Below, piece after piece: positions 43,392 to 46,109 of a stretch of 64,000 nt of DNA. The stretch comes from an uncultured Chlamydiae bacterium. GTDB lineage: Bacteria > Chlamydiota > Chlamydiia > Chlamydiales > JAJFMA01. The stretch lies in NCBI GenBank assembly GCA_963713615.1, contig CAVQMM010000001.1, forward strand, positions 2,016,001 to 2,080,000, given 5' to 3'. Both the position numbers and the translations under genes were made by a program. Numbering within the stretch: the first letter of the stretch is position 1; each line of letters starts with the position of its first letter. The notes below the pieces were generated by a model. That model saw only the letters and a list, made by a program, of their open reading frames with translations. It did no database searches and was not told where the DNA came from.

Positions 43392-43548
43392 GAAAAAAGG
43401 ACCAAAGGGACATAAATGACATAAGGAGGTAATTGCAGAAGTCCGATTCTCCGAAGTCAATTTCCTGAAAATCGGATGCCGGTGAAGAGAGAGTCATTCC
43501 CTTCCCAGGCCCGAAGGGTCGATATTGCAACAGGCCATGGCATCGCCA

Positions 43549-43857
43549 CATAGGCCTCAACCTAACAGGTCTTTTGAGCTTATATCTCAATGACTTAGGA
43601 CTTCACAATCGTATCTCGGCGCGCAGCGCTTTGGAGTGCGGTCGCTTGCGACCGCTTTTCGTTCCTTGGGACGGCAATGCTAAACGGCATTGTATGGATT
43701 CGTCGAAGGCTGCATGTACTAACTATTTTACCCTTAGGGAATTATAGTAATGCCGTTGCACACGACCGTCGCAAGGAACCCAAAGCGGTCGCAAGCGACC
43801 GCACTCCAAAGCGCTGCGCGCCGAGATACGATTGTTAGGCTTAGGTTGAGGCCTATG
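43549..43857. mobile_element. MITE-C (IS4-like ends), 309 bp
   Basis: Perfect 17-bp TIR CATAGGCCTCAACCTAA; 11-bp duplication TGGCATCGCCA at 43538-43548 and 43858-43868; contains perfect 54-bp inverted arms 43605-43658/43782-43835. Confidence 0.88.
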
Positions 43858-44044
43858 TGGCATCGCCATGGTATATGCCAAAACGGTTTTAGCAGCCTGT
43901 AGGGCTGCCATAAAGCGCATGCATAAATGGTGTTTGTAAACTGGCGTCTTGTAGCAATCCTTCAGACTGCGAAATCCCTTCCTGGCATATACCATGGCGA
44001 TGCCATGGCCTGTTGCAATATCGACCCTTCTACCATAGGATTTT

Positions 44045-44265
44045 GCAAACGATTATCGACGGTAATAGGAAAAGACAAAAAACATTTCTCTAAGGTATCA
44101 TTTTGGCCGACGAAGGTGTGGCCGTGTGCCCTTAGCGAATGTTTGTTCGCCTGGCCCGATATGCCGCCTTCGTCGTTTGCATCATCCAATAATTCCGTTC
44201 GGGATGGTGCCAATCTTCTGATTGTGGCTCTGTAAGTAGAAGTGGAATTTGGGTGAAATTTAACG
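44045..44265 (+). ncRNA. Predicted IS110 bridge RNA (target-binding loop ~44108-44175, donor-binding loop ~44184-44255); ends approximate
   Basis: Two stem/internal-loop/hairpin units whose loop strands match the target (GCCCTT, GGCCCGA) and the donor junction (CGGGATG, GTAGA). Confidence 0.85.
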
Positions 44266-44293
44266 CTCACAAACACTTAACAGGGCATTTATC

Positions 44294-45490
44294 ATGCAAA
44301 ATCAGTCCGAACTTCGTATTTGTCTAGATATCGGTAGCGTTCGACACTATGTAGCCATAGGCTTGTCCACAGGAGAACGCATCGATGGATTTTATCTAAA
44401 CCACACTTCTGAAGACATTGAGCAGTTTTTTGAGAAAATTGAGAAGCTTAGAATTTCCTATAACATGCCTGTTGTCATGGCTATGGAGGGGTTTAATGGC
44501 TATGCTAGACCCATCGATAGATATGCTCTTGATCACGGATATTCTTTGTATAGTGTCAACAACATGAAATTGGCTAGATTTAAGGAAGTTTTTCCTGGTC
44601 CAGCCAAAACAGATCCAATTGACGCTTGGGCTATTTTTAGCTTGTTTCAAGTTCAAGAGACCTTACCGTTGGCAAAAAATATTCTGCAGAAAGTAGAGCC
44701 TCCACCGGTATGCAACGAGCAACTTAAACATATTTCAAGGCGTCGTAGAGAGTTGGTAAAAGAAAAGACAAGAATCATAAATCGACTTCAAGGGGATCTA
44801 CAGGCTGTTTGCCCCGGTCTACTGTCTATTACAAAAAATCCAGCAAATCTTTGGTTTCTACGATTTCTTGCTTCGAAGGAAGACATGACCATGTTGCTTC
44901 GAATGCAAAAAAGAAGCCTGTTGCAAATCAAGGGCGTTGGAGAGGTTTATGCAGAGGAAATTCAGAAATGGCAAAAGACGGCTAAGTTCTCTTCAAAGGT
45001 TGAGTGGATAGGAAAATTAATAGTACGAGATGTCAGAAGGCTACTCGAGATGCTAGATGAAATAGCGCAGTTGGAGGTATTGATAGAGGGTTTGATCCCA
45101 CAATCCAAGATAGCATCTCGGATTGAATCTATTCCTGGATATGGTTCCATTTGTGCCGCAGAACTCGCTGGAGAGATTGGTAGTATCGATCGGTTTAAGT
45201 CGGAGGCTAGTCTAGCGCTCTACTTGGGAATAGGAATTCTGAACAAGAGTTCTGGCCAATATGAGGGGTCTCGATCGCCTCGAAATATTAACTGGAGGGG
45301 AAAGGGAGCTATGATGACCGGAGCTGCTCGACATATACAACTATGTGATGAGGCTGCACAGTACTACAAGAAGAAGAGAGCAGAGGGAAAAAAACATAAC
45401 CAAGCAGTACGAGCATTTGCCCGTCATATGATAAGAGTAATATGGTCGATACTCATACATGACAGGGATTACCGTCAGAAGGAAGACTGA
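44294..45490 (+). CDS. IS110-family DEDD recombinase/transposase
   Basis: RuvC-like DEDD residues (ICLDIG, AMEG, KTDPIDA); C-terminal SIPGYG, LAGEIG..RF, KSSG serine motif; KKHNQAVRAFAR. Confidence 0.95.
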   Translation: MQNQSELRICLDIGSVRHYVAIGLSTGERIDGFYLNHTSEDIEQFFEKIEKLRISYNMPVVMAMEGFNGYARPIDRYALDHGYSLYSVNNMKLARFKEVFPGPAKTDPIDAWAIFSLFQVQETLPLAKNILQKVEPPPVCNEQLKHISRRRRELVKEKTRIINRLQGDLQAVCPGLLSITKNPANLWFLRFLASKEDMTMLLRMQKRSLLQIKGVGEVYAEEIQKWQKTAKFSSKVEWIGKLIVRDVRRLLEMLDEIAQLEVLIEGLIPQSKIASRIESIPGYGSICAAELAGEIGSIDRFKSEASLALYLGIGILNKSSGQYEGSRSPRNINWRGKGAMMTGAARHIQLCDEAAQYYKKKRAEGKKHNQAVRAFARHMIRVIWSILIHDRDYRQKED

Positions 45491-46109
45491 GTTAGTTTAG
45501 CAAACGGGCTTTGTTCTGTTTGGCCTGAATGAACAAGGTCAGCAAATTCGGCGATGTTAGCTGAGCAGAAAAGGAGCACGGCTACTCTGCTTCGGCAACC
45601 CCATAGGAGTTGTATACAACCTTCCTAAGTAAATTCACCGTGTCCCTTCGCAGTTGAAAGGAGCACGGCTACTCTACTTCGGCTCTATAAATTTAGCAAA
45701 ATTAGAAAATAATTAAAAGTTTCAAAACCGAAGGAATTGGCATCGAAAAATCGCCTGAAAGCTACGAAAAATCTTGAAAAATTCTAGCGGGATGTCGGGC
45801 CTGGGAAGGGAGAAAAGCCTGTCTTTCCAGACTGGATAGTGCCATACCACTTAAGCTCTCTAGAATCGCCTTCTCACAAAAAAAGGTAACCTTTTTTCCC
45901 GAGAATCGATTCTCAAGGGCTCAAATAATTTTGCAATTACCTCTAAGGGACACAGGAGTATATTCTTACCAAGTCCTTTATGTCTTTTATGTCCCTTTGG
46001 TCCTTTTTGTCCATCAAGGGCGACCGCTCTCCTGAGCGCTTTGCGCATGTTATTCCGCTTTTTTAATGCCTATTGCATATCTTGCATGCCAAAAAAATAG
46101 TCATCCACT

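What the first reader, a model, noticed from the sequence alone, without database searches (positions are those of the whole stretch)
45774..45796. IS110 ends form a promoter only when circularised
Seen: joining the right end to the left end through one TC core gives TTGAAA(45774-79)-17 bp-TACCAT(44031-36), pointing into the predicted bridge RNA and the recombinase. Established: IS110/IS1111 circles assemble such junction promoters. This independently supports the element boundaries and suggests it may still be active.
Basis: partly seen in the sequence, partly recalled or inferred. Interest (0 to 1): 0.7.

Follow-up and report, generated by a model that had tools for sequence, protein, structure and literature searches.

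The report
IS110 element with two promoters
This is a recently spreading RNA-guided jumping gene whose two ends, once joined in a circle, are predicted to form a promoter (a known trait of the family), and it also carries a second, likely always-available promoter right in front of its guide RNA, so it is probably not silent until it circularises.

Summary
Joining the ends through the TC core gives TTGAAA (45774-79), 17 bp, TACCAT (44031-36). The element (44029-45796) is an intact IS110 bridge recombinase: 9 near-identical copies, all at one site of an abundant repeat, and a further insertion at a site empty in this genome. The junction promoter is textbook for IS110, and this scan noted it before on other DNA. 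It is conserved here: a -35-like hexamer at 17 bp in 11 of 11 right ends and TA[C/T]CAT in 10 of 11 left ends. This element keeps the spacing through a compensating indel, and a covarying RNA helix starts at the predicted start site. No circle was seen in the assembly or in 8 runs (contigs only), and no activity was measured. 'Only when circularised' fits that hexamer pair but probably not the element. A second -10 box (44096-44101) sits 7-8 nt before the bridge RNA's first stem in 10 of 10 left ends compared. The likely design is a weak internal promoter plus a strong circle promoter, as shown for ISPpu10. Verdict: known kind, modest new variant.

The parts
44029..45796 (+). IS110-family element, 1768 bp including both TC cores
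   Evidence: 9 copies with identical junctions; empty sites abundant
44029..44030 (+). left copy of the TC core
   Evidence: the only bases shared by left junction, right junction and empty site
44031..44036 (+). -10 box of the predicted circle-junction promoter (TACCAT); overlaps the donor bases read by the bridge RNA's right donor guide
   Evidence: TA[C/T]CAT after the core in 10 of 11 left ends
44036..44048 (+). left sub-terminal inverted repeat (11 of 13 with 45774-45786)
44044..44053 (+). 5' strand of a predicted leader helix that pairs with 44172-44181; it begins at the predicted junction start site
   Evidence: cognate pairing best in 6 of 9 relatives, permutation 4 of 362,880
44072..44101 (+). 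predicted internal promoter: weak -35 AAGACA 44072-77, G at -14, -10 TATCAT 44096-44101
   Evidence: activity untested
44109..44174 (+). bridge RNA target-binding loop: left guide 44124-44133, right guide 44153-44159, handshake 44160-44161
   Evidence: outer stem covaries in 7 of 13 pairs; guides follow each relative's own flanks
44181..44256 (+). bridge RNA donor-binding loop: left guide 44200-44208, right guide 44236-44240, handshake 44241-44242
44294..45490 (+). IS110 recombinase, 398 aa, D12/E65/D107/D110 and S320
   Evidence: PF01548 and PF02371; residues kept in 118-119 of 119 homologs
45570..45683 (+). right-end module: 27-nt direct repeat (45570-45596, 45657-45683), function unknown
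   Evidence: like sequence is implied by C-terminal read-through of homolog proteins
45774..45779 (+). -35 box of the predicted circle-junction promoter (TTGAAA), within the right sub-terminal repeat 45774-45786
   Evidence: TTGAAA 8, TTGATA 2, TTGCAA 1 at the same distance from the core in 11 of 11 right ends
45795..45796 (+). right copy of the TC core
43975..44028 (+). left part of the palindromic host repeat used as target (continues at 45797-45810)
   Evidence: 281 CCCT-TC-GGGC sites against about 5 expected

Best explanation
This is an intact IS110 bridge-recombinase element present in nine near-identical copies in one host repeat, and it likely runs on two promoters: a weak internal one, predicted to make bridge RNA and recombinase while the element sits in the chromosome, and a stronger one that would form only when the right and left ends are joined in the circle. 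Shown directly: the boundaries, the core, the copies, both hexamer pairs, their conservation, the guide-to-flank matches and the covarying stems. Inferred steps: (1) RNA polymerase with the housekeeping sigma starts weakly at about 44109, the first G of the target-binding stem. (2) The recombinase-RNA complex makes a circle. (3) TTGAAA and TACCAT come 17 bp apart and start a longer RNA at about 44043-44045, whose first bases pair with 44172-44181. (4) The boost in expression drives insertion into the TC of a further repeat copy.
For: Junction promoter. The hexamer 17 bp before the -10 position is TTGAAA, TTGATA or TTGCAA in 11 of 11 right ends found, while the middle of the spacer varies; TA[C/T]CAT follows the core in 10 of 11 left ends (relatives at 44-60% protein identity). 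This element has one base fewer between GGGATG and the core than all 10 other right ends, and one more next to the -35, so 17 bp is kept. The left-end mirror of TTGAAA varies among relatives, so inverted-repeat symmetry alone does not fix it. A helix whose 5' strand starts at the predicted start site covaries (cognate best in 6 of 9; 4 of 362,880 permutations). The motif fits the chlamydial consensus TTGA / TANNNT (PMC3333780, passages). TTGAAA-17-TAnnnT occurs 11 times upstream of this genome's ORFs and 0 times inside them (2561 ORFs). Internal promoter. TAnnnT lies 16-17 nt before the bridge-RNA motif GTGGC in 10 of 10 left ends, no other offset exceeds 2 of 10, and the per-sequence shuffle chance is 2-8%. 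Two relatives have a perfect TATAAT. G is at -14 in 8 of 10 (P 2.5e-4). The distance to the stem stays fixed while the distance to the core varies from 41 to 67 nt. No shared RNA helix contains the hexamer. Precedent: ISPpu10 has a weak native and a strong hybrid promoter (PMC12288879, passages). Activity: 7 full copies at 99.94-100%, and an identical element in L005 next to a unique flank that is empty in G000.
Against: No circle junction was found in the assembly or in 8 of 8 runs laid; contigs drop rare forms. No promoter was assayed and no start site mapped. The junction -10 overlaps donor bases that the right donor guide pairs with, and the -35 lies in the sub-terminal repeat, so part of their conservation has another cause. 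The internal -35 is poor here (AAGACA, spacer 18) and only 2-3 of 6 in 5 of 10 left ends. Its apparent enrichment (P 6.5e-4) is confounded, because in several relatives those bases form the leader helix. The leader helix is weak or absent in 3 of 9 (L007, L040, L044 rank 5-6) and its windows were chosen after inspection. The 16/17 offset was also read from the data. The relatives share ancestry, so the P values overstate. The upstream-versus-inside count is confounded by A+T content. ISPpu9 shows that an IS110 junction need not be a promoter.
Confidence: 0.65

Rival explanations
1. IS621-like: the junction promoter is the only promoter. The integrated copy depends on read-through from host genes, and the conserved internal TAnnnT is part of the RNA or a protein-binding site.
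For: This is how IS621 behaves (PMC13626964, passages). The internal -35 is weak. 5 of 9 copies have the nearest upstream long ORF on the same strand. The leader helix implies that the long RNA matters.
Against: The invariant positions are those of a -10 box (T, A, final T 10 of 10) with variable middle bases, 7-8 nt before the stem. There is no common helix. 4 of 9 copies have the nearest upstream long ORF on the opposite strand.
Confidence: 0.22
2. ISPpu9-like: the joined hexamers are a by-product of end recognition (sub-terminal repeat plus donor guide pairing) and are not a working promoter. The internal promoter does all the work.
For: ISPpu9 circles form no hybrid promoter. Both hexamers have a second role. 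The match is only 9 of 12, with a chance level of 1-3%.
Against: The compensating indel keeps 17 bp. TTGA is fixed while its left-end mirror varies. Three relatives have TATCAT, closer to consensus, although two of them keep the GTAGA guide. The leader helix begins at the predicted start.
Confidence: 0.1
3. The element is a recent but now inert relic and the circle is no longer made.
For: No circle was seen. 2 of 9 copies are interrupted by other elements, and a 16-bp left-end remnant exists.
Against: 7 intact copies differ by at most one silent base, the catalytic residues are intact, and there is an insertion polymorphism.
Confidence: 0.03

Closest known systems
IS621 of E. coli with its bridge RNA (PMC11208160, PMC11208158, PMC13626964)
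   Same: DEDD plus serine recombinase, left-end bridge RNA with target and donor loops, 2-nt core, handshake bases, sigma70-type promoter across the circle junction, repeat target
   Different: Core TC, not CT. No IS621 chain was hit by phmmer against the PDB at E 0.001. A conserved internal -10 box sits before the bridge RNA, whereas linear IS621 relies on read-through. There is a longer imperfect sub-terminal repeat and a 304-bp right end.
ISPpu10 of Pseudomonas putida (PMC12288879; 10.64898/2026.03.19.712850)
   Same: REP-targeting IS110 with a weak native promoter and a strong hybrid junction promoter
   Different: In the passages read, the native promoter was shown by reporter only and was not placed at the bridge RNA's first stem. 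No antisense RNA was looked for here.
ISPpu9 of P. putida (PMC12288879)
   Same: IS110 in REP sequences, a native promoter, extra non-coding material downstream of the gene
   Different: ISPpu9 circles form no hybrid promoter, whereas here the junction pair is conserved. No free copies of the right-end module were found in this genome.
IS1111 group (ISEc11 and others; PMC11187229)
   Same: Junction promoter and sub-terminal inverted repeats
   Different: The guide RNA here is upstream of the gene and the repeat is imperfect.

Membership tests
IS110 family, IS110 group | DEDD RuvC-like domain plus Transposase_20 domain with catalytic serine | tested here: met
   PF01548 E 1.3e-19, PF02371 E 4.8e-13; D12, E65, D107, D110, S320 in 118-119 of 119 homologs
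IS110 family, IS110 group | Site-specific insertion at a 2-nt core shared by donor and target | tested here: met
   9 of 9 copies at CCCT-TC-GGGC
IS110 family, IS110 group | Bridge RNA in the left end with guides matching target and donor | tested here: met
   97.4% of cells paired, 9 of 19 pairs with changes on both sides, slid controls 40-59%; left guides match own flanks at 6-9 of 9 nt in 9 of 9 relatives; this element's left guides are one base off the usual register
IS110 family, IS110 group | -35 from the right end and -10 from the left end at promoter spacing | tested here: met
   (sequence only)
IS110 family, IS110 group | Circular intermediate is formed | tested here: inconclusive
   not seen in the assembly or in 8 of 8 runs, all contigs
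IS110 family, IS110 group | Junction promoter is transcriptionally active | not testable with these tools
   no raw RNA reads were offered
IS1111 group | Guide RNA downstream of the transposase | tested here: not met
   the guide RNA is upstream; 9 of 11 right ends reach the core within 37-52 nt of the last aligned codon
IS1111 group | Sub-terminal inverted repeats of 7-17 bp | tested here: inconclusive
   an imperfect 11 of 13 repeat is present; its outer part is not kept in relatives

The most novel reading that the evidence does not exclude
This IS110 clade makes two bridge-RNA isoforms from two promoters: a short one from a dedicated internal promoter in the chromosome, and a long one from the circle junction whose leader clamps the target loop's base and the linker. 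The promoter switch therefore also changes the guide RNA's fold and may bias the complex towards excision in the chromosome and insertion from the circle.
Probability: 0.2. Interest if true: 0.7.

Novelty: new variant of a known kind. Interest (0 to 1): 0.4.

Why it matters
The junction promoter alone is ordinary. The internal box bears on how an integrated IS110 gets the guide RNA it needs to excise before any circle exists. For IS621 the published answer is read-through from host genes. This clade, found in chlamydiae and in at least two other phyla, appears to carry its own starter promoter, which is cheap to test. It also supplies a natural TC-core bridge recombinase whose guides tolerate a one-base register shift, and it marks the likely minimal bridge RNA (about 44109-44256) for anyone who characterises it.

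Tried and rejected
Circle junction: 0 exact matches in G000. No go-back joint in 8 runs of contigs (8 of the 22 runs listed were laid). The one empty-site joint in X2 can come from any empty repeat, so it is not evidence of excision.

Idea that the right-end repeats are an antisense to the target guide: P 0.057 in this element and no cognate preference in L006 or L030; rejected.

Idea that the internal TAnnnT is held by a conserved RNA helix: the partners differ between relatives; not supported.

Rfam: 0 matches at E 1 over 43400-46100. PDB sequence search: 0. Plasmids, phages and viral contigs: no locus. The right end does not fold better than shuffles (z -0.61 and -0.94). The three-way right-end alignment was uninformative.

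More relatives with DNA: in the window's own phylum, order and the family of G359, only G359 besides G000 matched (2 of 401, 2 of 391, 1 of 23). One search repeated the group. The right end of the G359 element was not recovered. The target repeat was not found in 5 related genomes.

Left out of the counts: L002-L004 and L008-L028 (distant or partial, at most 41% identity), L029 and L031-L033 (own copies), L034 and L045 (same elements as L001 and L044), L039 (left end truncated), L046-L055 (chance pattern hits), and L042 from the statistics (near copy of L038). L030 and L040 had no right end, and L035 no left junction.

RNA contigs covering part of the bridge RNA (X16 44149-44414, X17 44141-44401) show neither strand nor start and were not used as support. 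The ISEc11 promoter paper (PMC1483014) is not held. No supplements were read; bridge-RNA start sites of other orthologs may lie there.

Full report
Observation. Joined through one TC, the ends give TTGAAA, 17 bp, TACCAT: 9 of 12 against the sigma70 consensus and the only such pair across the junction. Random genome joins give one in 1.1% and shuffled ends in 2.6%. In 9 of 9 integrated copies the left flank offers no -35 at spacers 16-18.

The element. The ORF 44294-45490 has PF01548 and PF02371, with D12, E65, D107, D110 and S320 kept in 118-119 of 119 homologs. G000 holds 9 copies. 5 are identical, 2 differ by one silent base, and 2 are split by other multi-copy elements of 2.9 and 3.3 kb. 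All sit at the TC of CCCT-TC-GGGC, a site found 281 times against about 5 expected, inside a palindromic repeat mosaic. Metagenome contig L005 carries an identical element beside a unique 72-nt flank that is empty in G000, an insertion polymorphism. Its right flank belongs to another copy, as expected for a collapsed repeat. The host is an environmental chlamydia. That label is inferred from the window's genes and an earlier scan note, not named by a tool. The runs that hold half or more of the stretch's words are peat and soil metagenomes.

Bridge RNA. The left end folds into target- and donor-binding loops. On 10 left ends, a 19-pair structure that I named is 97.4% paired, with 9 pairs changed on both sides; slid controls give 40-59%. 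Left target guides match each relative's own flank at 6-9 of 9 nt in 9 of 9 relatives. Right target guides match well here (7 of 7) and in L006, and only partly in others such as L036. The first handshake base of each loop follows the opposite partner's base next to the core, the pattern described for IS110 orthologs (PMC11208158, passages). In this element both left guides are one base off the relatives' register, in opposite directions.

Junction promoter in relatives. Of 13 loci examined for a right end, 11 had one. The hexamer 17 bp before the -10 position is TTGAAA in 8, TTGATA in 2 and TTGCAA in 1. Of 11 left ends, 10 have TA[C/T]CAT after the core. I located left junctions with that motif, but the guide-to-flank matches confirm them independently. 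This element lacks the base that all 10 other right ends have before the core and has an extra base beside the -35, so the spacing survives. The bases just after the predicted start (44044-44053) pair with 44172-44181. The pairing covaries: cognate best in 6 of 9, 4 of 362,880 permutations, with windows chosen after inspection and related sequences. This suggests an RNA that begins there. The motif fits the C. pneumoniae consensus TTGA / TANNNT (PMC3333780, passages) and this genome's upstream regions. Against: both hexamers have second roles in end recognition, and no circle was seen in the assembly or in 8 runs of contigs.

The second promoter. The scan also lists AAGACA-18-TATCAT at 44072-44101. 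One such hit is at chance level: 6 found against 3.8 expected in the region. Across relatives, however, TAnnnT lies 16-17 nt before the bridge-RNA motif GTGGC in 10 of 10 left ends, no other offset exceeds 2, and the sequence upstream averages 37% identity. G at -14 occurs in 8 of 10. The box stays with the RNA stem while its distance to the core ranges from 41 to 67 nt. The first stem base follows 7-8 nt later, at 44109 here. No shared helix holds the hexamer. The -35 is weak and its signal is confounded by the leader helix. I put the odds that this is a working promoter at about 0.7; this is inference.

Mechanism (inferred). Weak internal transcription supplies bridge RNA and recombinase in the chromosome. 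A circle forms. The junction promoter raises expression and adds a leader. The complex inserts into another repeat copy. Whether the circle is cut out or copied out is untested. Copy-out of one strand is reported for IS621 (10.64898/2026.08.31.748434, abstract) and for CazIS110-1 (10.1101/2025.10.25.684509, passages).

Comparison with what is known. Junction promoters are established for IS621 and relatives (PMC11208160, passages and section 12; PMC11187229, passages; 10.64898/2026.03.19.712850, passages). This scan's earlier notes record them on other DNA (unchecked). Linear IS621 is transcribed weakly by read-through (PMC13626964, passages). ISPpu10 has a weak native plus a strong hybrid promoter, and ISPpu9 has no hybrid promoter (PMC12288879, passages). 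A weak-plus-strong design is therefore known. I found no report of a clade-wide -10 box fixed at the bridge RNA's first stem, or of a junction-specific leader helix, in three searches (0 papers; 8 listed, none on this by title and abstract start). The library lacks most subscription papers and I read no supplements. The bRNA architecture section of PMC11208158 (section 7) mentions a 5' stem loop in IS621, which may be a partial analogue of the leader.

Verdict. The element is a member of the IS110 group on every feature that could be tested from sequence. The likely internal promoter makes it a modest variant. Interest 0.4.

Noticed in passing
window 45570-45683; L006 2475-2566; L030 39-155: The three closest relatives have long right ends, each with a 21-27-nt direct repeat 68-96 nt apart, whereas 9 other right ends are 37-52 nt. 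C-terminal read-through of homolog proteins P0002, P0003, P0009, P0015, P0017 and P0023 resembles translations of this module, so it may be a conserved non-coding element. RNA contigs of two studies stop at 45671 and 45673, a weak hint.
   Followed up: partly
window 43500-44028 and 45797-46020: A mosaic of palindromic repeat modules, each with about 140-420 BLAST hits in the genome, some in arrays of about 473-bp period; not found in 5 related genomes. The genome has 6 Y1_Tnp (PF01797) matches that could be mobilisers.
   Followed up: partly
window 44124-44133 and 44200-44208: Both left guides are one base off the register seen in 9 relatives, in opposite directions. The left target guide fits a minor repeat variant (8 empty copies, 1 occupied) at 9 of 10 nt, better than the major target.
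   Followed up: partly
G000 C1 near 678061: A left junction with only 16 bp of the element's left end: remnant of a tenth copy.
   Followed up: no
G000 C1 1751221-1754078 and 3548262-3551524: Two other multi-copy elements (2858 bp; 3263 bp with about 220-bp inverted ends) interrupt two copies; each has several near-identical copies.
   Followed up: no
G000 C1 2769885, 2145904, 374916: Three further, unrelated PF01548 (IS110) matches, one with an internal stop.
   Followed up: no
L042 upstream of the element: The relative in G919 is inserted directly beside an array of repeated 28-nt units that looks like a CRISPR array (label from recall).
   Followed up: no
L007, L001, L035, L037, L041: Many relatives share the target GGGG-TC-AGGTC, itself a repeat in their flanks; this element and L006 have been retargeted to other sequences.
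   Followed up: partly
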